64,000 bases of DNA from Escherichia coli (GTDB lineage Bacteria; Pseudomonadota; Gammaproteobacteria; Enterobacterales; Enterobacteriaceae), in the NCBI RefSeq assembly GCF_003018255.1, contig NZ_CP027440.1. One strand, 5' to 3'. A program made the position numbers and the translations under genes. A model generated the notes under the pieces. The model was given only the letters and a program-made list of their open reading frames with translations, made no database searches and had not been told where the DNA came from. Positions 1 to 56,566 of the stretch are shown here, in pieces. Position 1 is the first letter of the stretch. Each line of letters begins with the position of its first letter.

Positions 1-800
1 TAACCGTCCCCATCGGCATGTCTTTACGTGAAGTCCTGGCGCTGGCGGGCGGCGCAACAGTAGATGCGCCTGGTTTTATCAATGGCGGGCCGATGATGGG
101 AAGTTTGATCACATCGCTCGACACCCCCGTCAGCAAAACCACTGGCGGCTTGCTGGTTTTACCCAACTCTCATTCACTGATCCAACTTCGAATGCAGAAT
201 GACCGCAGCGTACTTACCGTCGCGAAAACTGTTTGTGAGCAATGCCGCTTGTGTACCGATCTCTGCCCACGTCATTTAGTCGGTCACGAACTGGCCCCCC
301 ATTTATTAGTACGTGCGGTTAACTACCAACAGCTCGCTACGCCACAACTGTTACTGACGGCGCTCACCTGTTCGGAGTGCAACGTCTGCGCCAGCGTCGC
401 CTGTCCGGTAGGAATTTCACCAATGCGCATAAACCGCCTGCTTAAGCAGGAATTACGCGCACAAAATCTCCGCTACGAAGGTGCCTTAAATCCTGCTGAT
501 CCCATGGCAAATTATCGACTGATTCCCGTAAAACGGCTGGTAACCAGACTGGGCCTAATCCCGTGGTATCAGGATGCGCCATTGTCTGAACAGGTGCCTC
601 AGACCGAAAAAGTGACGTTATTGTTACGCCAGCACATCGGTGCCAGCGCAATTGCGTGTGTACAAAAAGGCGATCGCGTCGTTCATGGGCAATGTGTAGG
701 TCAAATTCCACACGGCACATTAGGTGCCCCGATTCATGCCAGTATTGATGGCATGGTCAGCGATGTGACAGAAAACGCAATTACGCTTGTGAGAGGTTAA
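1..800 (+). CDS. pduS: PduS-like cobalamin reductase, C-terminal part (gene runs off the 5' window edge)
   Basis: ORF 18..800 is open to the window edge; two ferredoxin-type cysteine clusters ([25 protein letters not shown]) typical of RnfC/PduS; followed directly by BMC shell genes. Family assignment from memory. Confidence 0.65.
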
Positions 801-802
801 CC

Positions 803-1357
803 ATGTCGAAAGCGGTAGGTATTTTAGAACTTAGCAGTATCGCGAAAGGGATGGAAACCGGCGACGCCATGCTGAAAAGCGCCAACGTTGAGTTACTGGT
901 CAGCAAAACGCTATGCCCCGGAAAATTTCTGCTGATGCTCGGTGGCGATGTGGGCGCGGTGCAACAGGCCATCAACAGCGGTGCTTCCGTTGCTGGTGAA
1001 ATGCTGGTCGACAGTCTTGTCCTGCCGAATATTCATCCCAGTCTCCTTTCTGCAATCAGCGGACTGAACCATGTTGAGCAGCACCGGGCTGTCGGCGTAG
1101 TCGAAACCTGGAGTGTCGCTGCCTGCATTGACGCTGCCGATTGTGCTGTCAAAGCTGCGAATGTCATTCTCGTTCGCGTACATATGGCTTTTGGCATTGG
1201 CGGAAAATGCTACATGGTGGTTGCTGGCGATATTTCAGATGTTAATAACGCGGTCTCTGTCGCCAGCGAGCGTGCGGGAGAAAAAGGTTTGTTGGTCTAT
1301 CGGTCGGTGATTGCCCGTCCACATGAAGCCATGTGGCGTCAGATGGTGGAGGGATAA
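803..1357 (+). CDS. pduT: Bacterial microcompartment shell protein, tandem-BMC type (PduT-like)
   Basis: 184 aa ORF with two BMC-like repeats; position between pduS-like and pduU-like genes; stop overlaps next start (TAATG). Confidence 0.7.
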
Positions 1358-1707
1358 TGACAACTCAGCACACAACTGAACGGATGATTCAGGAATATGT
1401 CCCTGGTAAGCAGGTCACGCTGGCACATGTCATCGCCAATCCAGGGAAGGATCTGTTTAAGAAATTGGGTTTACCAGACACCGTTTCTGCTATTGGCATT
1501 CTGACGATTACCCCCAGCGAAGCATCTATCATCGCATGCGATATCGCCACAAAATCAGGCGCTGTAGAGATCGGTTTTCTTGATCGTTTTACCGGTGCCG
1601 TAGTGCTGACTGGTGATGTTTCTGCTATTGAATATGCACTTAGCCAGGTTACCCGTACGCTGGGTGAAATGATGCGCTTTACCGCCTGCCCCATTACGCG
1701 GACCTGA
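1357..1707 (+). CDS. pduU: Microcompartment shell protein PduU/EutS family
   Basis: Translation from the internal ATG ([24 protein letters not shown]...) closely resembles remembered PduU; start chosen at the ATG overlapping the pduT stop. Confidence 0.75.
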
Positions 1708-1711
1708 CGTT

Positions 1712-2155
1712 ATGCAACGTATGATGCTTATCGGCCCCAGCCAGTGCGGAAAAACGTCACTCACGCAATGTCTGCGTGGCGAAAATATCCATTATCAGAA
1801 AACGCAGGCAATCGTCTGGTCCCCGACCACCATTGATACACCAGGCGAATACCTCGAAAACCGCAGCCTTTACAGTGCATTGTTGGTCAGTGCCTGCGAA
1901 GCAGACATTATCGCACTGGTACTTAATGCGGACGCACCGTGGTCACCTTTTTCGCCAGGCTTTACCTCGTCAATGAATCGCCCGGTCATTGGAGTAGTAA
2001 CCAAAGCAGATTTAGCCAGTATGGAACAAATATCTTTGGTGAAATGTTGGTTACGGGAAGCTGGAGCGCACAACGTGTTAGTAACCAGTGCGGTTAATAA
2101 CAATGGAGTTACAGAACTTTTTGCCTTGCTGCATACAGAAGAAGGCTGTCGCTAA
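1712..2155 (+). CDS. pduV: PduV/EutP-family small GTPase of microcompartment operons
   Basis: 147 aa ORF with P-loop (GPSQCGKTS) and EutP/PduV-like length and sequence; last gene before a convergent terminator. Confidence 0.7.
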
Positions 2156-4012: not shown

Positions 4013-4486
4013 TTAGTGATGTTTTGGCTGCACCGCAACATACATTTCGATATCCCAGTACCCATCTTCCGCGCCATTGTTCAAGTAAACCTCGAAGCAG
4101 GGCTTTGGTAACATTTCATAAGCACTGTCCTGCAAGAGGCTATTAAAGAACTGATACCAGGGTTTAGCAAAATCATCACCGACTACACGAGCCACCGCCA
4201 CCGCATACTGACCACCTGAAATTTCTGTCAGAATGACGCCCTCACTGTTTTCGGGGAGCGTAAAGTTATTCGGTACCGTCACGACGGTGTCGCAGCGTAA
4301 TTTTTCGGCGGGTGTTTCATCTGGATTGTCGTAATAGACAGCAACCCACTCCTTCGGCACAATATTTTTGCTATCTATCCACATCATCAACTGCTCAAAA
4401 CCTTTCTTTACCGTCTGCTCCCACGGGCCAACAAGATGGAAACCTGCAACGGTACGTTTCTCTTCCTGCTTAATCTCGTAGTTCAT
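4013..4486 (-). CDS. sbmC: DNA gyrase inhibitor SbmC (GyrI)
   Basis: 157 aa [27 protein letters not shown]...; matches remembered SbmC; conserved neighbour of dacD. Confidence 0.9.
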
Positions 4487-4502
4487 GACGCCTCCATTAA
4501 CA

Positions 4503-4518
4503 CTGTTTTTATATACAG
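4503..4518. promoter_or_regulatory. Candidate LexA (SOS) box upstream of sbmC
   Basis: Seen in sequence: CTGT-ttttatat-ACAG (CTGT-N8-ACAG) about 17 bp upstream of the sbmC start; sbmC is a known SOS gene (established knowledge). Confidence 0.5.
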
Positions 4519-4604
4519 TATAGTTGCAATATTAAAACCACAAGGAATGAGTGTTGATTATGCGAGCAGACTCGCACTCCTGCCAGTCTGCTGCAAAAGA
4601 AAGG

Positions 4605-5777
4605 TCAGGCCTTATGGTGGAAATAATCACTCAGGCGGGAAAACATGCCGCCTTCCCCGACAGATTCCAGGGTAACCAGCGGCCAGTGCGCCACCTGTTT
4701 ATCACGGTCGTAAAGTTCAATTTCCCCTACCCGCTGATGGGCGCTAATTGGCGCGGTGAGCTCTTTACCATCAAGGGTATATTTGGCTTTGATATGTGGA
4801 ATTTCGGCTTTCGGTAGCACCATCCAGAACTCTTGTTCCGTTCCCAGGTCGATATTTTCTTTATCGCCATACCAGATGCGTTCCGTTCCGACCTTTTTCC
4901 CACGGTGCAAAATTTGCACCGTAGTAAAGTTTTGTTGCCCCCAACGCAGTAATTTTCTTGCCTCTTCCTCACGACCTTTTGCACTGTCAGCCCCCATTAC
5001 CACTGCAATGAGACGACGCTGCCCATCTACAGCCGAAGCAATGAGATTAAACCCGGCACCAGAAGTATGACCCGTTTTCAGGCCGTCAACATTCATGGTT
5101 TTATCCCACAACAACCCGTTACGGTTTTGCTGGGTGATACCGTTCCAGGTGAGGCTTTTCTCACTGTACATATGATAAAACTCGGGCTCGCCGTGGATGA
5201 TAGCGCGAGAAAGCACAGCTAAATCATAAGCCGAGCTATGCTGGCCAGGTGCATCCAGACCATGCACTGTTTCAAAATGCGTATCCTTGAGATGCAGCTT
5301 CTCGGCATAGTTGTTCATCATTGCAACAAACTGCCGTTGCCCACCGGCAATATAGTCAGCCAGTGCAACACAAGCATCATTTCCGGAATCCACAATTAAA
5401 CCACGGCTTAAATCACGTACCGATACGCGATCGCCCTCTTTCAAAAACATCAGTGAAGAACCGACAAACACTGGATTATCTTTCGCCCACGCATCGCGCC
5501 CTACGGTGACAATATCGTCTGGCGTAATTCGATGACTATCGATAGCGCGATCCACGACATAACCCGTCATCAGCTTTGTCAGGCTGGCGGGATTGCGCTG
5601 TTGATGCTCATTACCCGCGGTGAGGATCTGTCCGGTGGTGTAATCCATCAATACCCAGGACCCGGCATGAATCTCTGGAGGCTGAGGTGAAAAAGGAATG
5701 TTTTCCGCCGCAAAACCAGACGATAAGTTAAAAACGAACAAAGAAGCAGCAATAATAAGACGGCGTTTCAACAGCAA
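4605..5777 (-). CDS. dacD: D-alanyl-D-alanine carboxypeptidase DacD (PBP6b)
   Basis: 390 aa ORF with signal peptide and SxxK active-site motif (ASLTKLMT), typical of class C low-molecular-weight PBPs; synteny. Confidence 0.9.
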   Translation of the reverse strand: MLLKRRLIIAASLFVFNLSSGFAAENIPFSPQPPEIHAGSWVLMDYTTGQILTAGNEHQQRNPASLTKLMTGYVVDRAIDSHRITPDDIVTVGRDAWAKDNPVFVGSSLMFLKEGDRVSVRDLSRGLIVDSGNDACVALADYIAGGQRQFVAMMNNYAEKLHLKDTHFETVHGLDAPGQHSSAYDLAVLSRAIIHGEPEFYHMYSEKSLTWNGITQQNRNGLLWDKTMNVDGLKTGHTSGAGFNLIASAVDGQRRLIAVVMGADSAKGREEEARKLLRWGQQNFTTVQILHRGKKVGTERIWYGDKENIDLGTEQEFWMVLPKAEIPHIKAKYTLDGKELTAPISAHQRVGEIELYDRDKQVAHWPLVTLESVGEGGMFSRLSDYFHHKA

Positions 5778-8839: not shown

Positions 8840-9105
8840 GGTCATTCTCCTTTACGGTGATAACCGTCGCGTAAGCAAAAAATTGCCCCATTTTTTTGGA
8901 TTCCTCAGCGACAACAACTGTCGATTTTTAGTAAATATCTATCCGGTACGAAGCCCGGCCTCTTGGTATGAATGATTGGTTTGAAGCAAAAAATAACCGA
9001 CGCTAATTAAACGTCGGTTTTTAGTCATTTTTTGACAGCGGCGCATTGTGCCTAAATGGGGGGGAAATGACAAGAGAATGAGAGGCTTGTCATAATAATT
9101 TTTCT

Positions 9106-11329: not shown

Positions 11330-11380
11330 ATGACACGCGTTCAATTTAAACACCACCATCATCACCATCATCCTGACTAG
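11330..11380 (+). CDS. hisL: his operon leader peptide
   Basis: Seen in sequence: ATG ACA CGC GTT CAA TTT AAA followed by seven consecutive His codons, CCT GAC TAG (MTRVQFKHHHHHHHPD). Confidence 0.95.
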   Translation: MTRVQFKHHHHHHHPD

Positions 11381-11440
11381 TCTTTCAGGCGATGTGTGCT
11401 GGAAGACATTCAGATCTTCCAGTGGTGCATGAACGCATGA

Positions 11441-11480
11441 GAAAGCCCCCGGAAGATCACCTTCCGGGGGCTTTTTTATT
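11441..11480 (+). terminator. his attenuator terminator hairpin
   Basis: Seen in sequence: gaaaGCCCCCGGAAG-atcac-CTTCCGGGGGC-ttttttatt immediately upstream of hisG. Confidence 0.85.
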
Positions 11481-19777: not shown

Positions 19778-20944
19778 TTAGTCACTGCCAAAGAGATCGC
19801 GGGTGTAGACCTTATCTGCCACATCCTTAAGCTCTTCTGCCATACGGTTGGAAATAATGACGTCGGCTTGTTGTTTGAAGGTGGCGAGATCACGTTCCAG
19901 ACGAGAGTTGAAGAATGAGTCTTCTTTCATCACCGGCTCGTAGATGATCACCTCAACGCCTTTAGCCTTAATACGTTTCATAATCCCCTGAATGGAAGAC
20001 GCGCGGAAGTTATCTGAACCGCTCTTCATAATCAGGCGATAAATACCCACCACTTGCGGTTTGCGTGACAAAATGGCATCGGCAATAAAATCTTTACGCG
20101 TGCGGTTTGCATCGACAATTGCCGAGATCAGGTTATTCGGCACAGACTGGTAGTTCGCCAGTAACTGCTTGGTATCTTTCGGTAGACAATAACCACCATA
20201 GCCAAACGACGGATTGTTGTAATGGTTGCCAATACGCGGATCGAGACAAACGCCTTCGATAATCTGGCGAGTATTCAGCCCTAAACTTTCTGCATAGCTA
20301 TCCAGTTCATTAAAGTATGCTACGCGCATCGCCAGATAGGTATTAGCGAAAAGTTTAATCGCTTCTGCTTCAGTGGAGTCGGTAAACAGGGTTGGGATAT
20401 TTTGCTTAATCGCGCCTTCCTGTAATAACGCCGCAAAACGTTCTGCGCGTTCCGAACGCTCACCGATGACAATACGTGACGGATGAAGGTTATCGTAAAG
20501 GGCTTTACCTTCGCGGAGGAATTCGGGGGAGAAAATAAGGTTATCGATACCCAGACGTTCTTTAATTGATTTGGTGAAACCTACCGGAATTGTAGATTTA
20601 ATCACCATTACCGCGTTGGGATTAATTTCTGTCACATCGCGAATGACCGCTTCCACGCTTGAGGTATTAAAATAATTTGTTTTTGGGTCATAATCGGTAG
20701 GCGTGGCAATAATAACGTAATCGGCATTTTTATACGCGTCATACTTATCTGTCGTAGCGCGGAAATTGAGATCTTTAGTCGCCAGATACTCTTCAATCTC
20801 CTTATCAACAATCGGTGACTGCTTCTTGTTAAGCATGTCCACTTTGGCCTGAACGATATCCAGTGCAACCACTTCGTGGTTTTGCGCAATCAGAATACCA
20901 TTTGAAAGACCAACATAACCTGTTCCTGAAATTGTTATTTTCAT
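19778..20944 (-). CDS. ugd: UDP-glucose 6-dehydrogenase
   Basis: ORF 19778..20971; start placed at [16 protein letters not shown] (Rossmann motif); synteny with gnd. Confidence 0.95.
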
Positions 20945-21142
20945 TAGCTCTGACTTCTTCCGGTTAAACATTTAGAGTGGTCATTAATCCACCACCACAG
21001 CTTCATCTACTGCGGGATTTTTAACGCTGATGTAGATGAACTGTCAAGGCAGCGATCCTGCTGTGCGGCTCTGTATTATATCGCTTTTTTAACCATAAAT
21101 TATAAAAAAAGGCCATAACCTGCCGCTTTGTATAATAAAAAA

Positions 21143-21192: not shown

Positions 21193-22599
21193 TTAATCCA
21201 GCCATTCGGTATGGAACACACCTTCTTTATCAATGCGCTTATAAGTATGCGCACCGAAATAGTCACGCTGTGCCTGGATCAGATTCGCAGGCAAAACAGC
21301 GGCGCGGTAGCTGTCATAATAGGCAACCGCAGCGGCGAATGTCGGAACCGGGATACCGTTCTGCACTGCATAAGCAACGACATCACGCAGCGCCTGCTGA
21401 TAGTCATCGGCGATTTGCTTAAAGTACGGAGCCAGCAGCAGGTTAGCGATCTGCGGATTTTCGGCGTATGCATCGGTGATTTTCTGCAGGAACTGCGCAC
21501 GGATGATGCAGCCAGCACGGAAAATCTTCGCGATTTCGCCGTAGTTCAGATCCCAGTTGTATTCTTCAGACGCAGCACGCAACTGAGAGAAGCCCTGAGC
21601 GTAAGAAACGATTTTGCCCAGATAAAGCGCACGACGAACTTTTTCGATAAACTCAGCCTTATCGCCTGCTGGCTGTGCTTGCGGGCCAGAGAGAACTTTA
21701 GATGCGGCAACACGCTGATCTTTCAGAGAAGAGATATAACGTGCAAACACAGACTCGGTAATCAGCGACAGCGGTTCGCCGAGATCAAGCGCACTCTGGC
21801 TGGTCCATTTGCCCGTACCTTTGTTTGCTGCTTCATCCAGAATCACATCAACCAGGTAGTTACCGTCTTCATCTTTTTTGGTGAAGATATCTTTGGTGAT
21901 GTCGATCAGGTAGCTGCTCAGTTCACCGTTATTCCACTCGGTAAACGTCTGCGCCAGTTCTTCGTTGGAAAGATTCAGGCCACCTTTAAGCAGAGAATAG
22001 GCTTCAGCAATCAGCTGCATATCGCCGTATTCAATACCGTTGTGAACCATCTTCACATAGTGACCTGCACCATCGGCACCGATATAGGTAACGCATGGCT
22101 CACCGTCTTCAGCTACTGCGGCGATTTTGGTCAGGATCGGCGCAACCAGTTCATAGGCTTCTTTCTGCCCACCAGGCATAATGGAAGGACCTTTCAGCGC
22201 GCCTTCTTCACCACCGGAGACACCGGTACCAATGAAGTTAAAGCCTTCGGCAGAAAGCTCACGGTTACGACGAATGGTGTCCTGGAAGAAGGTATTACCA
22301 CCATCAATGATGATGTCACCTTTATCGAGGTATGGCTTGAGGGAATCAATAGCAGCATCCGTGCCTGCACCTGCTTTCACCATTAACAGGATGCGACGAG
22401 GCGTTTCCAGAGATTCAACAAACTCTTTCACCGTATAGTAAGGAACCAGTTTCTTGCCTGGATTTTCGGCAATCACTTCTTCGGTCTTTTCACGGGAACG
22501 GTTGAAAATAGAGACGGTATAACCACGGCTTTCGATATTGAGCGCAAGGTTGCGCCCCATCACTGCCATACCGACGACACCGATCTGTTGCTTTGACAT
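21193..22599 (-). CDS. gnd: 6-phosphogluconate dehydrogenase (decarboxylating)
   Basis: 468 aa [30 protein letters not shown]...; highly conserved. Confidence 0.97.
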
Positions 22600-22706
22600 T
22601 GTTTACTCCTGTCAGGTGGAAAACTAAATACTTTTAGAGTTAGCGTTATATTAACTGATATCATTTGATGATAGTAGATAATATTATGATAAATACTGAC
22701 TCAGTA

Positions 22707-23723
22707 TCACTCAGAATATCCATTCGGATTTTTATTTTGCCATCTCCAAGCATCAGTAATCATATCCTCAAGTGTACGCTTTGCTTCCCAATGAAGCTCT
22801 TTAATAGCTAAATCTGGTTTTGACCAACATTCAGCGATATCTCCAAGCCTTCGCTCAGAAATAACATAAGGTATTTTTATTCCGGTTATTTTTTGAAAGG
22901 CATCAATAATCTCTTTTACTGAATATCCTTTACCTGTGCCTAGGTTATAATAACGTAACCCACCGTATATATTTTGTTTTTTTAGCGCTGCAATATGACC
23001 TTCCGCTAAGTCCATAACATGTATGTAATCTCTAACTCCGGTGCCATCAACCGTAGGATAATCCCCCCCATATATGGTCAACTTCTCAAGTTTCCCAACA
23101 GCAACCTGTGTTAAATAGGGAAAAAGGTTGCTTGGTACACCATTAGGATCCTCACCAATTAAACCAGAATAATGTGCGCCTACAGGATTAAAATATCTCA
23201 AGCAAGTTGCATTAAATTTAAATTCATAATTGGTTATATCTTCAAGCATTCTTTCAACAATATATTTTGTCGTCCCATATGGATTTGTTGTTCCTCCTGT
23301 ACTGCAATTTTCGTGCACCGGAATAGCTGTAGGATTGCCATATACTGTTGCGGATGAACTAAAAATAAAATTGTAAATTTTATTTTTTAACATCGAGTCA
23401 ATTAAATGCAAAGTTCCAATAACATTATTCTCATAATACTGAATGGGTTTTTTAATTGATTCCGAAACAGATTTTAGCGCAGCAAAATGAATAACAGCCT
23501 CGATATCATTATTTGCAAACACAGAATCAATCAAGTCAATGTTGCGTATATCTCCTTCATATATAATTATTTTCTTAGAAGTCAAATACTCCACTCTTTT
23601 TAAAGCAATCTTTGAAGAGTTACTAAAATTATCAATAACAATAACATCATAGTTATGATTTAAAAGTTGCAATACTGTATGTGAACCAATATATCCTGCC
23701 CCACCAGTCACGAGAACAGCCAT
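22707..23723 (-). CDS. gne: UDP-N-acetylglucosamine / UDP-glucose 4-epimerase (GalE/Gne family)
   Basis: 338 aa short-chain dehydrogenase/reductase ORF with GGAGYIGS and YxxxK catalytic motif (YGTTK); last gene of the AT-rich O-antigen cassette next to gnd. Confidence 0.8.
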   Translation of the reverse strand: MAVLVTGGAGYIGSHTVLQLLNHNYDVIVIDNFSNSSKIALKRVEYLTSKKIIIYEGDIRNIDLIDSVFANNDIEAVIHFAALKSVSESIKKPIQYYENNVIGTLHLIDSMLKNKIYNFIFSSSATVYGNPTAIPVHENCSTGGTTNPYGTTKYIVERMLEDITNYEFKFNATCLRYFNPVGAHYSGLIGEDPNGVPSNLFPYLTQVAVGKLEKLTIYGGDYPTVDGTGVRDYIHVMDLAEGHIAALKKQNIYGGLRYYNLGTGKGYSVKEIIDAFQKITGIKIPYVISERRLGDIAECWSKPDLAIKELHWEAKRTLEDMITDAWRWQNKNPNGYSE

Positions 23724-23756
23724 ACCCTCTCCTTTAAAAACATTTTTTATAAGAAA

Positions 23757-24734
23757 CTATCTGTTTTTTACTTGATACAAGAAATGATAAACTGGAAAGA
23801 ATTTTTTAATCAACAACAAGCGAAACGCATAATACATACCAAAAGCCTGTTCGCAATTCATTTTCTGCTCTATGTTTTTCGGCAAAACTATTTTATTTTT
23901 TTTACATAAAAGGAATATATAAATCAAAAAATCATTGTATCTTTTCTTAAGATAATACTTGACCAATCTATTCTTTGTTGTTTGTATAATACATCTATAG
24001 GTTTTTAATACTTCCAGATAACCAATTATATTGCGAGAGCTAATTTTACTTGTCATTATTGAGTTTTCCCTTACCCTTCGGTAAAAATAAATCTCATCGG
24101 TACAATAACACAACTTAGAATCTAAAATAATCCTAGGTAAGTACTCTTCATCCTCATGAACTATATTTTTAAAAAATGAATTTCGCATTAATAATTCAGT
24201 TCTAAATACATTAATGCAAACAGATGAAAAGTAAGAATTGGTTGAAAATAATCTTTCTAAAAAAACATCACCAGACTTACAAATTTGAAATTTAGTTCGT
24301 TTATATGAAGGAATTTTACCTGCCAAATTAGAAGGGAGCCCTAATATTGATCCTGAAAATGCTATAATGTCTAACTCTTTATAATTAGTCAATATTTCAT
24401 TAATATCCCTTATAAACATTGGACTCAAAGCATCATCAGAGTCAAAAAAATAGACGTATGGTGTGCTAACTTTTGTCAGACCATAATTCCTAGCACTGCT
24501 TAAACCACCATTTTCTTTAGAAAATATCTTATAATTATCCTTACCCTCTATTCTTTTTTTAAGGAGAGGTATCGAATCATCACTAGAACCATCATCCACG
24601 ATGATAACTGAATGTGGTTGCATAGACTGATTTATAATAGAATCTATAGCCTCAACAATATAATCTTGGACATTGTACACAGGCATAACAATTGATATTA
24701 ATTTGGAAATCTCATTTTCTTTTTGGCAAAGCAT
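23757..24734 (-). CDS. Glycosyltransferase family 2 (O-unit glycosyltransferase)
   Basis: 325 aa ORF; N-terminal GT-A signature (ISIVMPVYN ... IIVDDGSSD); AT-rich codon usage. Confidence 0.75.
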   Translation of the reverse strand: MLCQKENEISKLISIVMPVYNVQDYIVEAIDSIINQSMQPHSVIIVDDGSSDDSIPLLKKRIEGKDNYKIFSKENGGLSSARNYGLTKVSTPYVYFFDSDDALSPMFIRDINEILTNYKELDIIAFSGSILGLPSNLAGKIPSYKRTKFQICKSGDVFLERLFSTNSYFSSVCINVFRTELLMRNSFFKNIVHEDEEYLPRIILDSKLCYCTDEIYFYRRVRENSIMTSKISSRNIIGYLEVLKTYRCIIQTTKNRLVKYYLKKRYNDFLIYIFLLCKKNKIVLPKNIEQKMNCEQAFGMYYAFRLLLIKKFFPVYHFLYQVKNR

Positions 24735-26145
24735 TGTTTAATAATCCCACAATGGTATTTTTATCAATAATAAACATAAGACAAACATAACTCCCTGCAC
24801 CTATAACGATATAATAAATCAAAGATAATAATTCCATATTATTAGATTGAGTTATAAAATTATTTTTAGCAATCAGTATCAAAATTAGCATGCAAACACT
24901 ACAAAACAAAGGTTTACATGTTATACATAAAATGTTTTTTATGTTACCTTGGAGCAATCTCATGACGTAATAAAAGCAGATGTAAAATATTAATACATTC
25001 GCACAAAGATATAACTGGCAGAATATAACGATATTGAAGCATGCCCCAATAACAAATGACATAACTTGAATTATTGCACTCACACAACCAATCCTTGCCA
25101 GCAACTTAACGTTACCTAAAGATAAAAAAACTACTCCTGTAGTGCTCGTGAGTGCTTGGATAATCCCAACAGGTGCCAACCATTTTAAAAGAAGAGCAGC
25201 ATTATCCCAATTTTTACCAAACAGAAAAAAAACTAACTCGTTACTTAACGAAGCGAGCCCAATCATGGCAGGAATTGACAAAACTGCAATGAACTTTAGC
25301 GAGTCTAAATATATTCTTTTTTTTGTTATAATATCTTTTGAATGACTTAGCTTAGGCAATAAAGCTCTATTAAATATATAAGTTATATTTTGAACTGGAA
25401 ATAACATAAGTCTATATGCTAATGCATAATTACCTAAAACATACTGCCCAAAAATTTTTCCAACTATAATATTATCAGCGTTACGTGAGAAATAATTCAC
25501 CATATTAAATGACATTACATTAACACAATAGCCAAATATTAATTTTATATATTTCATCCGCCAAGAAAATTTATATTTTCTTCTATTTTTAAGGCTCAAT
25601 AAAAAAACAACAATAACTGCATACAAAAGGGCCTGTAGAGACACAGCATAAAGTCCAAAGCCCATGGCAATTACTATAAAAACAACAATGATTGAAATCG
25701 ATAATGATATCAACTCTATGAGAGCAGTAATATTGAACTGTTGGTTTCGTTCTAATAAAGCAAAATTAAAAGCAATAAAACTTTGTAAAGGAAATGAAAA
25801 AGAGATGATCAATATTAATAGAAACAACCTTGTGTCATTGTAAAAAAGGGATATTGGATAAGCTAATAATGTCATTACGATAAAAATAACGAGACCGCTT
25901 ATAAAGTTTAATGTGTATGTGGATTTAATAAAATTTTCACTTATTCTTCTCCGTTGAATTAATATTGATGACGTCCCCATATCTCTAAAGAGCATGGCAA
26001 ATGCAGCCACTACGCTTACAATGGAAATCAAACCATAGTCATAAGGCGTTAAATAACGAGCCAGTACAAAGATCAAAACTAATTGGCTCAGAGCTCTTGC
26101 AATTTGAGATAAAGCGACCCATTTTACTCCTGTTATCAAAAGCAT
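24712..26145 (-). CDS. wzx: O-antigen flippase
   Basis: 477 aa polytopic ORF with Wzx-like N-terminus (ALSQIARALSQLVLIFVLARYLTPYDYGLISIVSV); AT-rich. Confidence 0.75.
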   Translation of the reverse strand: MLLITGVKWVALSQIARALSQLVLIFVLARYLTPYDYGLISIVSVVAAFAMLFRDMGTSSILIQRRRISENFIKSTYTLNFISGLVIFIVMTLLAYPISLFYNDTRLFLLILIISFSFPLQSFIAFNFALLERNQQFNITALIELISLSISIIVVFIVIAMGFGLYAVSLQALLYAVIVVFLLSLKNRRKYKFSWRMKYIKLIFGYCVNVMSFNMVNYFSRNADNIIVGKIFGQYVLGNYALAYRLMLFPVQNITYIFNRALLPKLSHSKDIITKKRIYLDSLKFIAVLSIPAMIGLASLSNELVFFLFGKNWDNAALLLKWLAPVGIIQALTSTTGVVFLSLGNVKLLARIGCVSAIIQVMSFVIGACFNIVIFCQLYLCANVLIFYICFYYVMRLLQGNIKNILCITCKPLFCSVCMLILILIAKNNFITQSNNMELLSLIYYIVIGAGSYVCLMFIIDKNTIVGLLNNALPKRK

Positions 26146-26152
26146 TTTATTA

Positions 26153-27100
26153 TTATCTCACTCTTTTTTTAAAATGGTTTTCATAAACTTTTTGCTTCAA
26201 ATATATAATGCCAGGGAACGCTCTTTTGAGTAGCAACTTAGTTGCAAATAATGTCCAGTATTGTTTTTTTGCTATAAAAGAAAATATAATTTTAATTTTT
26301 AAACATCTTAACATCATTAACCTAAACAGGTTATAATTCTTTGTATCATTGTACATTATATTCTTATATTTAAAATAATACTTCCGATATGCCACATAAT
26401 CTTTAATATTCTTGGTTATTCTAACACCTTCATGAGAAATATCCATATAGTAAGTATTAGCGTTTAACCTCCTGGCACTCCCATAAACTTGAATAAGTTT
26501 AGTCCAAACATCTTGATCTTGTAACCGTTTAAAATCAATAGAAAATCCTCCAACTGATAACAAACGCTCTCGCTCAACTAAAATCTGGTTACCAGCTTCA
26601 TTTTCCTTGAGTATACTTTGTAAATCAATGATACATTCTCTTTGAAATCGTGCATGATTATTTGTTCCAGTCACTATTATATAGTTATCGCAGATAAAGG
26701 AAAATTCCTTGTTATAATGATTAACCAGAATCTGTAACCTATCTTCTTTGAAATAATCATCATCATCCAACCCTGTAATGAAGAAACCTTTTGCATGCTT
26801 TAATCCTCTATTTCTAGAAAAATTAGCCCCCATATTTCTTGGGTTTTTCTTATATATAAAATTCTTAATATTTGGTGTTGCTACTTCTTGCAATTCTTTT
26901 ACAATCAAGTCAACTTCATAACTAGAGTTATCATCGACTACGATTAATTCTATTTTTGAATAAGTTTGATTAAATACTGATAATATTGCTCTGCGCAACA
27001 GCAAAGGGCGATTATAAGATGTTATAAGAACGCTTACTAATTTTTCCATTTCTTTTTCAAAACCATCAACAAAGTAATTATAACCAAAGAATAGATCCAC
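26153..27100 (-). CDS. Glycosyltransferase family 2
   Basis: 315 aa ORF; GT-A signature (VSVLITSYNRP ... IVVDDNSS). The true start may be the internal ATG near 27049, reducing the overlap with wzy. Confidence 0.7.
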   Translation of the reverse strand: MDLFFGYNYFVDGFEKEMEKLVSVLITSYNRPLLLRRAILSVFNQTYSKIELIVVDDNSSYEVDLIVKELQEVATPNIKNFIYKKNPRNMGANFSRNRGLKHAKGFFITGLDDDDYFKEDRLQILVNHYNKEFSFICDNYIIVTGTNNHARFQRECIIDLQSILKENEAGNQILVERERLLSVGGFSIDFKRLQDQDVWTKLIQVYGSARRLNANTYYMDISHEGVRITKNIKDYVAYRKYYFKYKNIMYNDTKNYNLFRLMMLRCLKIKIIFSFIAKKQYWTLFATKLLLKRAFPGIIYLKQKVYENHFKKRVR

Positions 27101-37012: not shown

Positions 37013-37595
37013 GCCTGATGCGACGCTAACGCGTCTTATCAGACCTACAAGTCCCGAGCACAGAACCGTAGGCCGGATAAGGCGTTCACGCCGCATCCGG
37101 CATTCAGTGCCTGATGCGACGCTGACGCGTCTTATCAGGCCTACAAGATCCGAGCACAGAACCGTAGGACGGATAAGGCGTTCACGCCGCATCCGGCATT
37201 CAGTGCCTGATGCGACGCTGACGCGTCTTATCAGGCCTACAAGATCCGAGCACAGAACCGTAGGACGGATAAGGCGTTCACGCCGCATCCGGCATTCAGT
37301 GCCTGATGCGACGCTGACGCGTCTTATCAGGCCTACAAGACCCGAGCACAGAGCCGTAGGACGGATAAGGCGTTTTACGCCGCATCCGGCATTCAGTGCC
37401 TGATGCGACGCTGACGCGTCTTATCAGGCCTACAAGATCCGAGCACAGAACCGTAGGCCGGATAAGGCGTTCACGCCGCATCCGGCATTCAGTGCCTGAT
37501 GCGACGCTGGCGCGTCTTATCAGGCCTACAAGATCCAAGCCCAGCCCCCCAGGACGGATAAGGCGTTTTACGCCGCATCCGGCAACCGTTGCCGG
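37013..37595. repeat. Tandem array of about six 96-97 bp BIME units (inverted REP pairs) between wcaK and wzxC
   Basis: Seen in sequence: unit gcctgatgcgacgctgacgcgtcttatcaggcctacaagatccgagcacagaaccgtaggacggataaggcgttcacgccgcatccggcattcagt begins at about 37013, 37109, 37205, 37301, 37398 and 37494 with few substitutions. Confidence 0.85.
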
Positions 37596-37611: not shown

Positions 37612-39090
37612 TCACCCCGCCCGTAAAAGCATTTTCATTTTTTCGCTGCGACAAAACTGACGCTTCACTTCCACCACCAGCGGATGGCGTGACAGCACAA
37701 TCATCACCACAAACGCCAGCACGCCTGCGGCTATTTGCACCGCCAGCAGCATCCCCAGCGCCAGTTGCCCTTTCAGCACAATGCCCAGCGCATAACTGAC
37801 CCCCAGTGTCGGCAACGAGAGATAAAACGGCAGCCACAAACTCAGGATGTACTGGCGATAACTGGAACCAAGAACCGGTTTAATCATCACGAAGTAACTC
37901 AGAATGGTGTTGATAATCTGCACCAGCAGGAAACCGAGCGTGACGCCGATTGCGCCCGCCATCTGCCCACCAATAACAATCGCCGGAATAAACAGAAATG
38001 TTTTGAATACGTTGAATTTAAAGCTGATATCGACCCGCGCTTTCGCCATCAGCAGCGAACCAATCGGGTTACCCACCGAACGCAGCAGTCCCACCACACA
38101 CAGCAATTGCAGCACCGGAATAATGCTGTTCCACTTCTCACCAAAGACCAGCGGTACAAAGTTATTCGACACCACCATCAGCCCCAGCAGCGCCGGAAAG
38201 TTGATAATCCCCACCACCGACAGCAGCTTGTAGAAGTTGACGCGCAGCTTTTCGGTGTCGTCCTGAATTTTGGCAAATGCCGGAAACAACACGCGGGTGA
38301 TGATTGGGTTCAGCTTCATCGGCGGCACAACGGCCACGTTGTACGCCAGGTTGTATCCCCCTGCCACGCCCGCGCCGAGAATACGCGCCAGCACCAGCGT
38401 TGAAAGGTTAGTGTTGAGATAGTTGATGATGCTGTCCGCCGTCAGCCAGGCACCAAAGCGTAAGTTCGGTGCCACCGACGCCAGCGAGAAATGCAGACCG
38501 GGGCGATAAATTTTGCGACCAAAGTAGCCAAACAGCAGCGTTCTCACCGCACTATTGACCAGATAACCGAGGATCGCAGTCATCGCCAGCGGCCAGAAAT
38601 GGGCGCTAACCACCGTAAAAGTGAAGCCCGCCAGCACCGCGCTGGTTTCGATCATGCCGATTTTGTTGAACTCCAGCTCCTTCTGCATCAACGCGCGGAA
38701 CTGTTGCCCGTGGGGGATTACCACAAACGCCAGCGACAATGTTTTAATCAACGGTGCCAGGTCCGGGTTGTTCAGCACGTCACCAATGAGATCACTCAAC
38801 AAAAACACCGCCACACACACCACAAGCCCCAGCCCGACGTTTAGCCAGTACAGCGTGGTGAGTTCAAGGTGGCTGATTTCTTTTCGCTGAATAATCGAGT
38901 TAGCGATACCGAAGTCAGAAAGCGTATCTGCCAGCGCGATAATCACCAGCGACACGGTAAGCAGGCCGAACTGGTGGTTGTCGATAATCCGCGCCAGCAC
39001 GGTCATCTGCACCAGCCCAAGGCCGATGATGATCACCGTGGCAATCGCCGACCACTTCGCGCCGCTGATGGTTTTTTCACGTAAGCTCAT
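37612..39090 (-). CDS. wzxC: Colanic acid repeat-unit flippase
   Basis: 492 aa polytopic ORF; synteny. Confidence 0.9.
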   Translation of the reverse strand: MSLREKTISGAKWSAIATVIIIGLGLVQMTVLARIIDNHQFGLLTVSLVIIALADTLSDFGIANSIIQRKEISHLELTTLYWLNVGLGLVVCVAVFLLSDLIGDVLNNPDLAPLIKTLSLAFVVIPHGQQFRALMQKELEFNKIGMIETSAVLAGFTFTVVSAHFWPLAMTAILGYLVNSAVRTLLFGYFGRKIYRPGLHFSLASVAPNLRFGAWLTADSIINYLNTNLSTLVLARILGAGVAGGYNLAYNVAVVPPMKLNPIITRVLFPAFAKIQDDTEKLRVNFYKLLSVVGIINFPALLGLMVVSNNFVPLVFGEKWNSIIPVLQLLCVVGLLRSVGNPIGSLLMAKARVDISFKFNVFKTFLFIPAIVIGGQMAGAIGVTLGFLLVQIINTILSYFVMIKPVLGSSYRQYILSLWLPFYLSLPTLGVSYALGIVLKGQLALGMLLAVQIAAGVLAFVVMIVLSRHPLVVEVKRQFCRSEKMKMLLRAG

Positions 39091-41911: not shown

Positions 41912-42001
41912 ATCGTTACCCTTTTTCAGGCAATAGTTGGCCCTGACCGAAGCGGCCAATTTTGTTTTTGTCGTTATTTACATCGCGGTTTCGCATTCAT
42001 T

Positions 42002-56527: not shown

Positions 56528-56566
56528 CACGCTACCGCCCCTGGCTTTTTAGCTACCAATACACTG
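56528..56566 (-). promoter_or_regulatory. JUMPstart/ops element in the wza 5' leader
   Basis: Seen in sequence: minus strand reads cagtgtattggtagctaaaaagccaggGGCGGTAGCGTG, a 39-bp JUMPstart with exact ops 12-mer, about 180 bp upstream of wza. Confidence 0.8.

What the first reader, a model, noticed from the sequence alone, without database searches (positions are those of the whole stretch)
4503..4518. Candidate LexA box just upstream of sbmC
A CTGT-N8-ACAG palindrome with an AT-rich spacer lies about 17 bp upstream of the sbmC start codon, consistent with known SOS control of the gyrase inhibitor. It serves as a positional check on the sbmC annotation.
Basis: partly seen in the sequence, partly recalled or inferred. 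Interest (0 to 1): 0.2.

Follow-up and report, generated by a model that had tools for sequence, protein, structure and literature searches.

The report
Known LexA operator of sbmC
The palindrome is the well-known binding site through which the DNA-damage repressor LexA keeps the E. coli gyrase-inhibitor gene sbmC switched off; it is real, strongly conserved, and ordinary.

Summary
Confirmed and already known. CTGTTTTTATATACAG is at window 4503..4518. The full 20-mer is 4501..4520, and its core edge lies 17 nt from the sbmC ATG. sbmC runs on the minus strand (4013..4486). The window is E. coli. The 20-mer, read on the sbmC strand as TACTGTATATAAAAACAGTG, matches the K-12 sbmC/umuDC box at 19 of 20 positions; the difference is A20G, outside the core.

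A weight matrix built from 16 other published E. coli boxes scores it 24.9 bits, the best hit in the window. The highest score in 100 simulated windows was 17.8. A LexA-like box sits 14-24 nt upstream of the sbmC ATG in 65 of 69 related loci retrieved from other species. Published K-12 data show lexA-dependent induction and a heterology index of 2.8.

A second conserved block 58 bp upstream (4561..4576, TGCGA-N6-TCGCA) is the published CRP-S (CRP plus Sxy, class I) site of sbmC. Class I geometry puts the transcription start inside the LexA box. LexA therefore most likely occludes the -10 element and the start site. The start site is inferred here, not mapped. Interest is low.

The parts
4501..4520 (.). 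LexA operator (SOS box), 20-mer. On the sbmC (minus) strand it reads TACTGTATATAAAAACAGTG. The CTGT-N8-ACAG core is 4503..4518.
   Evidence: It matches the published K-12 box at 19 of 20 positions (PMC3009722).
4013..4486 (-). sbmC (gyrI) coding sequence, 157 aa, the regulated gene.
   Evidence: RefSeq annotation; Pfam GyrI-like; PDB 1JYH.
4491..4495 (-). Shine-Dalgarno sequence GGAGG, 4 nt before the ATG.
   Evidence: Read directly from the sequence. Invariant or nearly so across genera.
4515..4522 (-). Inferred -10 region of the proximal sbmC promoter. Two readings: TATACT at 4522..4517 (15-nt spacer) or TACTGT at 4520..4515 (17-nt spacer). Either overlaps the upstream LexA half-site.
   Evidence: Inference from the sequence, from conservation, and from class I CRP geometry. 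Not mapped here.
4538..4543 (-). Inferred weak -35 element TTGTGG; the TTG is conserved.
   Evidence: T68 and G70 are invariant in alignment A2; conservation profile. Inference.
4507..4510 (-). Inferred transcription start, a run of A residues inside the LexA box.
   Evidence: A CRP-S centre at 4568.5 placed near -61.5 (class I, PMC1635313) gives 4507. The -10 readings give 4508-4510. The 5' boundary of the UV-induced transcript on a tiling array falls inside the box. Not mapped at nucleotide resolution here.
4561..4576 (.). CRP-S site core TGCGA-N6-TCGCA (CRP plus Sxy dependent activator site). Its centre is 58 bp from the centre of the LexA box.
   Evidence: conservation and spacing. PMC1635313: sbmC requires CRP and Sxy and works by a class I mechanism.

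Best explanation
Window 4501..4520 is the LexA operator of sbmC. In undamaged cells a LexA dimer binds the two CTGT/ACAG half-sites. The site covers the -10 region and the start point of a weak, activator-dependent promoter (-35 TTGTGG, -10 TACTGT or TATACT, start near 4507-4510 on the minus strand). Bound LexA therefore keeps RNA polymerase from forming an open complex. After DNA damage, RecA-stimulated self-cleavage of LexA frees the site. sbmC is then transcribed with a leader of about 21 nt, helped by CRP (with Sxy) bound at the CRP-S site centred about 60 bp upstream. SbmC/GyrI then protects gyrase and DNA from poisons.

Shown here: the sequence, its score, its identity with the K-12 operator, and its conservation and spacing across species.

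Taken from the literature: LexA dependence, UV, AZT and nalidixic acid induction, CRP and Sxy dependence, and the class I mechanism.

Inferred: the exact -10 element and start site, and therefore occlusion as the mechanism.
For: Sequence and position.

Match to the operator: the only consensus match in 64 kb. It scores 24.9-25.7 bits, the top hit in the window, with the next best at 16 bits. No simulated window out of 100 reached it; their maximum was 17.8.

Comparison within E. coli: the window is E. coli, with sbmC and dacD annotated at the match. The alignment to K-12 has no gaps, the core is identical, and only A20G differs. The core was identical in all 9 further E. coli genomes, drawn from three searches, where the site is intact.

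Other species: a LexA-like box of 10-26 bits lies 14-24 nt before the sbmC ATG in 65 of 69 related loci. Nothing above 8.5 bits occurs elsewhere in those loci of about 3.4 kb.

Literature: the published K-12 box sequence and UV induction (PMC3009722). Heterology index 2.8, 5.7-fold AZT induction and 9.5-fold lexA dependence (PMC11228462). Salmonella sbmC has a box 21 bp from the ATG and is induced 3.55-fold by nalidixic acid (PMC8072944). sbmC was one of the promoters in an SOS reporter set (PMC5999292).

Geometry: the CRP-S site is published as class I. The CRP-to-LexA spacing is held at 58-61 bp in one group of genera. This puts the start site inside the box. The tiling-array 5' boundary also falls inside the box.
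Against: No nucleotide-resolution start site could be obtained here; the papers that mapped the promoter are not held.

The simple sigma-70 scan does not call the proximal promoter on the sbmC strand. Its only minus-strand hit is CTGGCA-18-CATAAT at 4586..4557, about 40 bp upstream of the box.

PMC5999292 notes that a prediction tool does not assign sigma-70 to sbmC, and the authors suspect an alternative sigma factor.

The bare CTGT-N8-ACAG pattern is not statistically unusual.

Position 20 is G, not the consensus A. This costs 2-3 bits, or 1.5-2 heterology-index units on my matrices.

LexA binding in this strain was not and cannot be tested here.
Confidence: 0.93

Rival explanations
1. Same operator, different mechanism. 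Transcription starts about 7 nt downstream of the distal CATAAT (near 4550), and LexA bound at about +30 to +50 acts as a roadblock to elongation instead of occluding the promoter.
For: CTGGCA-18-CATAAT is the only sigma-70-like hit on the sbmC strand in the intergenic region. Its -35 TGGCA and its CATAMT are highly conserved, with invariant A and T at the positions that would be -11 and -7.
Against: The conserved core of that block is the palindrome TGYGA-N6-KCRCA, published as the sbmC CRP-S site acting by a class I mechanism (PMC1635313). An activator site centred at about -18 of the promoter it activates is incompatible with class I. The UV-induced transcript boundary lies inside the LexA box, not 40 nt upstream. 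In Klebsiella and Raoultella the TGGCA element is missing while the palindrome remains.
Confidence: 0.1
2. The palindrome is only an AT-rich promoter element or a chance palindrome, with no LexA function in this strain.
For: CTGT-N8-ACAG alone occurs about as often as chance allows. The sequence overlaps -10-like hexamers on both strands.
Against: It scores 24.9 bits against a simulated maximum of 17.8. The core is identical to the experimentally LexA-dependent K-12 site. Conservation peaks on the half-sites TGTAT and ACAGT, while the 8-bp spacer sequence varies between genera.
Confidence: 0.02
3. In addition to sbmC, the box gates a plus-strand promoter. TTAACA (4497..4502), a 16-bp spacer that is exactly the LexA core, and TATAGT (4519..4524) would drive a LexA-controlled transcript antisense to the 3' end of dacD.
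For: This is the best promoter-like hit in the region, 10 of 12. K-12 has TTGATA-16-TATAGT, read from the alignment. The operator-in-spacer layout resembles recA as described in PMC5999292.
Against: The plus-strand -35 lies in the poorly conserved stretch between the box and the Shine-Dalgarno sequence (conservation digits 1-3 of 9) and is weak in other genera. The plus-strand -10 is the complement of sequence already constrained by the minus-strand promoter and the box flank. No transcript evidence was found. Rfam finds nothing there.
Confidence: 0.1

Closest known systems
E. coli K-12 sbmC (gyrI) LexA box, TACTGTATATAAAAACAGTA (K-12 coordinates 2081277..2081296 by my mapping)
   Same: Same locus and synteny (yeeA-sbmC-dacD-sbcB). 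Same distance to the ATG. The 16-bp core is identical, 19 of 20 positions match overall, and the flanking intergenic region differs at only 3 positions in 181 nt.
   Different: Position 20 is G, not A, which makes the outer flank of the promoter-distal half-site non-consensus. In the 11 E. coli genomes read at this position (10 with an intact box, plus the right half of the IS-disrupted one), position 20 was G in 5 (window, GTDB E. coli representative, three others) and A in 6.
umuDC LexA box
   Same: The K-12 umuD box is the same 20-mer as the K-12 sbmC box (PMC3009722 Table 4). It is one of the closest-to-consensus operators, with a heterology index of 2.1-2.8 in PMC11228462.
   Different: Different gene and promoter context. 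The window site carries A20G.
LexA plus cAMP-CRP co-regulated promoters (for example colicin E1, cited in PMC5999292)
   Same: A LexA operator at the promoter is combined with an upstream CRP site, so expression needs both DNA damage and a nutritional signal.
   Different: Here the CRP site is of the CRP-S type (TGCGA core) that also needs Sxy. There is a single LexA box, not the paired boxes that colicin promoters have (the latter from my own knowledge).

Membership tests
Gammaproteobacterial (E. coli-type) LexA operator / SOS box | Two CTG / CAG motifs exactly 10 bp apart (CTGT-N8-ACAG palindrome). | tested here: met
   CTGTTTTTATATACAG at 4503..4518. The requirement is stated in PMC5999292.
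Gammaproteobacterial (E. coli-type) LexA operator / SOS box | A/T-rich (TA)n-like spacer and TA flanks; a weight-matrix score or heterology index within the range of verified operators. | tested here: met
   The spacer is 8 of 8 A/T. Score 24.9-25.7 bits against a training range of 13.3-28.8. Heterology-index analogue 2.6-3.8 against 0.6-11.9. One flank base (position 20) is not consensus.
Gammaproteobacterial (E. coli-type) LexA operator / SOS box | Located at or near the promoter of the regulated gene. | tested here: inconclusive
   The box is 14 nt from the ATG in a 118-bp intergenic region. Overlap with the -10 element and start site is inferred from CRP class I geometry and the tiling-array boundary. 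No nucleotide-resolution start site was available.
Gammaproteobacterial (E. coli-type) LexA operator / SOS box | Orthologous to an experimentally LexA-dependent site, and conserved across species. | tested here: met
   Matches the K-12 site at 19 of 20 positions. K-12 sbmC shows 9.5-fold lexA dependence. A box is present in 65 of 69 related loci.
Gammaproteobacterial (E. coli-type) LexA operator / SOS box | Physical binding by LexA and derepression on RecA-mediated cleavage, in this strain. | not testable with these tools
   Needs EMSA, footprinting, ChIP or reporter assays. lexA and recA lie outside the window.
SbmC/GyrI (GyrI-like domain) gene | Full-length GyrI-like domain protein orthologous to E. 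coli SbmC. | tested here: met
   Pfam PF06445 at E 5e-33 over residues 1-152. PDB 1JYH at E 7e-107 over residues 1-157. RefSeq annotation of identical DNA.
CRP-S site (Sxy-dependent CRP site) | A 22-bp CRP-type palindrome with the core half-site TGCGA in place of TGTGA. | tested here: met
   TGCGAGTCTGCTCGCA on the sbmC strand at 4576..4561, with both halves of the C6/G17 type. The motif is defined in PMC1635313.
CRP-S site (Sxy-dependent CRP site) | Class I position (near -62, -72 and so on) and dependence on CRP, cAMP and Sxy. | not testable with these tools
   Reported for K-12 sbmC in PMC1635313. Here only the spacing to the LexA box (58 bp) and its conservation (58-61 bp) could be measured.

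The most novel reading that the evidence does not exclude
The natural A/G polymorphism at position 20 of the box (G in this window and in 5 of the 11 sampled E. coli sequences) could measurably weaken LexA binding. That would change the size of the spontaneously sbmC-ON subpopulation between strains, as a single SOS-box SNP does for yebG in Salmonella (PMC8072944). Separately, the exact fit of the LexA core as the 16-bp spacer of a near-consensus plus-strand promoter leaves open a LexA-controlled transcript antisense to dacD.
Probability: 0.2. Interest if true: 0.3.

Novelty: already known. Interest (0 to 1): 0.08.

Why it matters
It matters only as a quality check. It anchors the sbmC start codon and strand, and it shows that the first-stage reader can recognise a genuine SOS operator from raw sequence. 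The biology is textbook or published: LexA control of sbmC, and its CRP and Sxy co-control. The modest added value is comparative. The box, the CRP(-S) site and their spacing are retained across more than 60 enterobacterial species. Two spacing classes appear: 58-61 bp with a TGCGA core, and 45-47 bp with a TGTGA core.

Tried and rejected
1. Looked for a mapped sbmC transcription start. Baquero 1995, Oh 2001, Zheng 2004 and Sinha 2009 are not held. The identifier I recalled for the Thomason dRNA-seq paper was not held, and no text supplements were held for Cappable-seq, Conway 2014 or Cameron 2006. The tiling-array supplements do not list sbmC. Full-text searches for sbmC with TSS or primer extension gave nothing useful. 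The start site therefore remains inferred.

2. Rfam on 4350..4750 at E up to 1 gave no match. No known RNA element explains the conserved blocks.

3. Alternative readings of the distal conserved block, considered and dropped by inspecting the sequence and the alignments:
- A dacD terminator or hairpin (GCAGACT-N12-AGTCTGC). There is no T-run, and the left arm is not conserved in Salmonella, Citrobacter or Kluyvera.
- A sigma-54 promoter. The GG-to-GC spacing is wrong.
- A marbox or a MerR-type operator. There is no fit.
The CRP-S reading fits the sequence and the literature.

4. The second CTGT-N8-ACAG, at 33113 (CTGTCGATATCGACAG), lies inside the 33049..34443 ORF, has a G/C-containing spacer, and is not among the top weight-matrix hits. 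It was rejected as a LexA site.

5. My first simulation script timed out. It was rewritten and completed.

Full report
**Observation.**
The plus strand at 4503..4518 reads CTGTTTTTATATACAG: CTGT, an 8-bp all-A/T spacer, then ACAG. The neighbouring gene is the minus-strand ORF 4013..4486 (157 aa, [11 protein letters not shown]...). It is SbmC/GyrI by three tests:
- Pfam GyrI-like, E 5e-33.
- Full-length match to PDB 1JYH 'DNA gyrase inhibitory protein', E 7e-107.
- RefSeq annotation 'DNA gyrase inhibitor SbmC' on 100%-identical E. coli DNA.

'Upstream' here means higher coordinates, because sbmC is on the minus strand. A GGAGG Shine-Dalgarno sequence sits at 4491..4495.

**Is it more than chance?**
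The bare CTGT-N8-ACAG pattern is not. It has 2 matches in the window against 0.77 expected, and 18 of 100 shuffles give at least 2. The second match (33113, CTGTCGATATCGACAG) is inside a gene and scores poorly.

The full 20-mer is a different matter. On the sbmC strand it reads TACTGTATATAAAAACAGTG.
- It is the only match in 64 kb to TACTGTATATATATACAGTA with up to 3 mismatches, against 0.00 expected.
- I built weight matrices from the published E. coli boxes in Table 4 of PMC3009722. I left out sbmC itself, and in a second version also umuD, whose box is identical to that of K-12 sbmC.
- The site scores 25.7 and 24.9 bits. That is the top hit in the window on both strands. The next hits are 16 bits (28135, a half-site only) and 14 bits (20288, inside a gene).
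- In 100 first-order-Markov sequences of the same length, the best score averaged 11.6 and never exceeded 17.8.

**Comparison with K-12 and other E. coli.**
The window is E. coli chromosome: 5,417 of 5,426 complete genomes match this segment. Aligned to MG1655, the 181 nt around the site have no gaps and differ at three positions. The 16-bp core is identical and the 20-mer differs only at position 20 (A in K-12, G here). The K-12 20-mer TACTGTATATAAAAACAGTA is the published sbmC box and is the same sequence as the umuD box.

In the 9 further E. coli genomes with an intact site, drawn from three searches, the core never varies. Across the 11 sequences readable at position 20 (those 9, the window, and the right half of the IS-disrupted strain), G occurs in 5 and A in 6. 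On my matrices the G costs 2-3 bits, or 1.5-2 heterology-index units. The site remains among the stronger operators.

**Conservation across species.**
One scan of species-representative genomes with the SbmC protein returned 69 loci, from Escherichia, Citrobacter, Salmonella, Enterobacter, Lelliottia, Kluyvera, Leclercia, Raoultella, Klebsiella and others. In 65 of them the best LexA-matrix hit in the 250 nt upstream region lies 14-24 nt before the sbmC ATG and scores 10-26 bits. Nothing elsewhere in those loci of about 3.4 kb exceeds 8.5 bits. Conservation peaks on the half-sites (TGTAT and ACAGT) and on GGAGG-ATG, while the spacer sequence varies. This is the footprint expected of a protein-binding palindrome.

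**Experimental basis, from the literature.**
- K-12 sbmC is listed among the classic SOS genes. It has a heterology index of 2.8, 5.7-fold induction by AZT and 9.5-fold dependence on LexA cleavage (PMC11228462).
- It is UV-induced, and its box was the top MEME hit among induced genes (PMC3009722).
- Salmonella sbmC has one box 21 bp from the ATG, is induced 3.55-fold by nalidixic acid, and was studied as a gfp fusion in wild-type and lexA(Ind-) backgrounds (PMC8072944).
- PMC5999292 included the sbmC promoter in its SOS reporter set and noted a biphasic response. The authors suspected an alternative sigma factor, consistent with the gene's known stationary-phase induction.

**How it works.**
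The alignment shows a second block about 58 bp upstream that is at least as conserved as the box. In E. coli it reads CTGGCAGGAGTGCGAGTCTGCTCGCATAAT. The promoter scan calls it a sigma-70-like promoter, CTGGCA-18-CATAAT. Its invariant core, however, is the palindrome TGYGA-N6-KCRCA. In E. coli this is TGCGA-N6-TCGCA, at window 4561..4576.

That is the CRP-S motif of Cameron and Redfield (PMC1635313). They report the following:
- sbmC is CRP-regulated through a site resembling CRP-S.
- It is induced 6-fold by Sxy.
- It absolutely requires CRP, cAMP and Sxy.
[quoted passage not shown] 2004).

A class I site is centred near -61.5. With the palindrome centre at 4568.5, the start falls at about 4507. 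That lies in the run of A residues inside the LexA box.

Two -10 readings are consistent with this:
- TACTGT (4520..4515), 17 nt after a conserved TTG (TTGTGG, 4543..4538).
- TATACT (4522..4517), 15 nt after the same TTG.

The tiling-array study places the 5' boundary of the UV-induced sbmC transcript exactly 100 nt downstream of AGGCCTGACC. That point is inside the box, and the array resolves down to about 7 nt in intergenic regions.

I therefore favour the classical mechanism. LexA covers about -13 to +7 and excludes RNA polymerase from a weak promoter that also needs CRP and Sxy. The leader would be about 21 nt.

This step is inferred. The primary promoter-mapping papers are not in the held library. 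The alternative, in which the distal CATAAT is the real -10 and LexA acts as a roadblock at about +30 to +50, keeps about 0.1 probability.

**Comparative aside.**
The centre-to-centre distance between the CRP-type palindrome and the LexA box falls into two classes.
- 58-61 bp in 51 loci, all with a TGCGA left half. These are Escherichia, Citrobacter, Salmonella, Enterobacter, Kluyvera and Leclercia.
- 45-47 bp in 11 loci, 10 of them with TGTGA-N6-GCACA and one with a TGCGA left half. These include Raoultella, Klebsiella and Pluralibacter. Most have a degenerate left LexA half-site (ATGT), and the box lies 20-24 nt from the ATG.

This would fit a shift from class I to roughly class II positioning. 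I did not test that further.

**Verdict.**
The feature is the already known sbmC SOS box in its known regulatory context. Novelty: already known. Interest: low (0.08).

The least ordinary readings still open are:
- A functional effect of the A20G polymorphism.
- A LexA-gated antisense promoter on the plus strand (TTAACA, the 16-bp LexA core as spacer, TATAGT).

Neither has supporting evidence beyond the sequence.

Noticed in passing
window 4557..4590 (core 4561..4576): A block upstream of the LexA box is as conserved as the box itself across more than 60 species: TGYGA-N6-KCRCA followed by TAMT. In E. coli it is the perfect CRP-S palindrome TGCGA-N6-TCGCA, published as the Sxy- and CRP-dependent class I site of sbmC (PMC1635313). 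The simple promoter scan misreads it as CTGGCA-18-CATAAT.
   Followed up: yes
loci L042, L043, L048, L053-L055, L057, L060-L063 compared with the rest (upstream of position 1501): There are two architectures of the sbmC control region. In one, a TGCGA-type site lies 58-61 bp from the LexA box. In the other, the site lies 45-47 bp away: TGTGA-N6-GCACA in 10 of these 11 loci, TGCGA-N6-TCACA in L063. Most of the second group has a degenerate left LexA half-site (ATGT) and a longer distance from box to ATG. This may be a repositioning from class I to class II.
   Followed up: partly
L075 (E. coli fS149a, NZ_CM176575.1), L079 (strain 44), L076 (strain 14EC001): Natural disruptions of the locus. An ISKox3 (ISL3-like) element is inserted inside the LexA box spacer, removing the left half-site and the promoter. 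One strain has unrelated sequence starting right after the box and no sbmC annotated. One strain has sbmC annotated as a pseudogene with an internal stop.
   Followed up: partly
window 4497..4524, plus strand: Best promoter-like hit in the region (10 of 12): TTAACA, a 16-bp spacer that is exactly the LexA core, then TATAGT. It points away from sbmC and antisense into the 3' end of dacD. K-12 has TTGATA-16-TATAGT. The -35 is not conserved in other genera.
   Followed up: partly
window 1..2155: pdu (propanediol utilisation) genes pduU and pduV lie directly next to tmaR/yeeX, according to the RefSeq annotation of the 100%-identical strain JNE23-011. My recollection is that K-12 does not have pdu genes at this position; I did not check this here.
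   Followed up: partly
window 20288..20307 and 28135..28154: Weak LexA-matrix hits. TTCTGCATAGCTATCCAGTT (13-14 bits, CTG-N10-CAG intact) lies inside the 19778..20971 ORF. TACTGTATAGTAATCCATTT (16 bits, right half lacks CAG) lies inside an ORF of the 28%-GC cluster. 21 of 100 simulated windows reach 13.3 bits or more, so these are probably chance.
   Followed up: partly
window 33113..33128: A perfect 16-bp palindrome, CTGTCGATATCGACAG, inside the 33049..34443 minus-strand ORF. It fits CTGT-N8-ACAG but has a G/C-containing spacer and a low LexA score.
   Followed up: partly
window 37071..37526: Five tandem copies of the naRNA4 (CssrE, REP-type) element at a period of about 96 bp, in the gap between two large minus-strand ORFs (35671..36951 and 37612..39090).
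   Followed up: no
window 8986..9060, 11356..11479, 30597..30635, 41916..41965, 56528..56566: Other Rfam matches: STnc240 sRNA (minus), His operon leader (plus), two JUMPstart elements (minus), and an algC RNA motif (minus).
   Followed up: no
window about 22000..30600: A low-GC block (28-37% against about 50% elsewhere) of minus-strand ORFs with a JUMPstart element at its upstream end. This is the composition expected of a horizontally exchanged O-antigen gene cluster.
   Followed up: no
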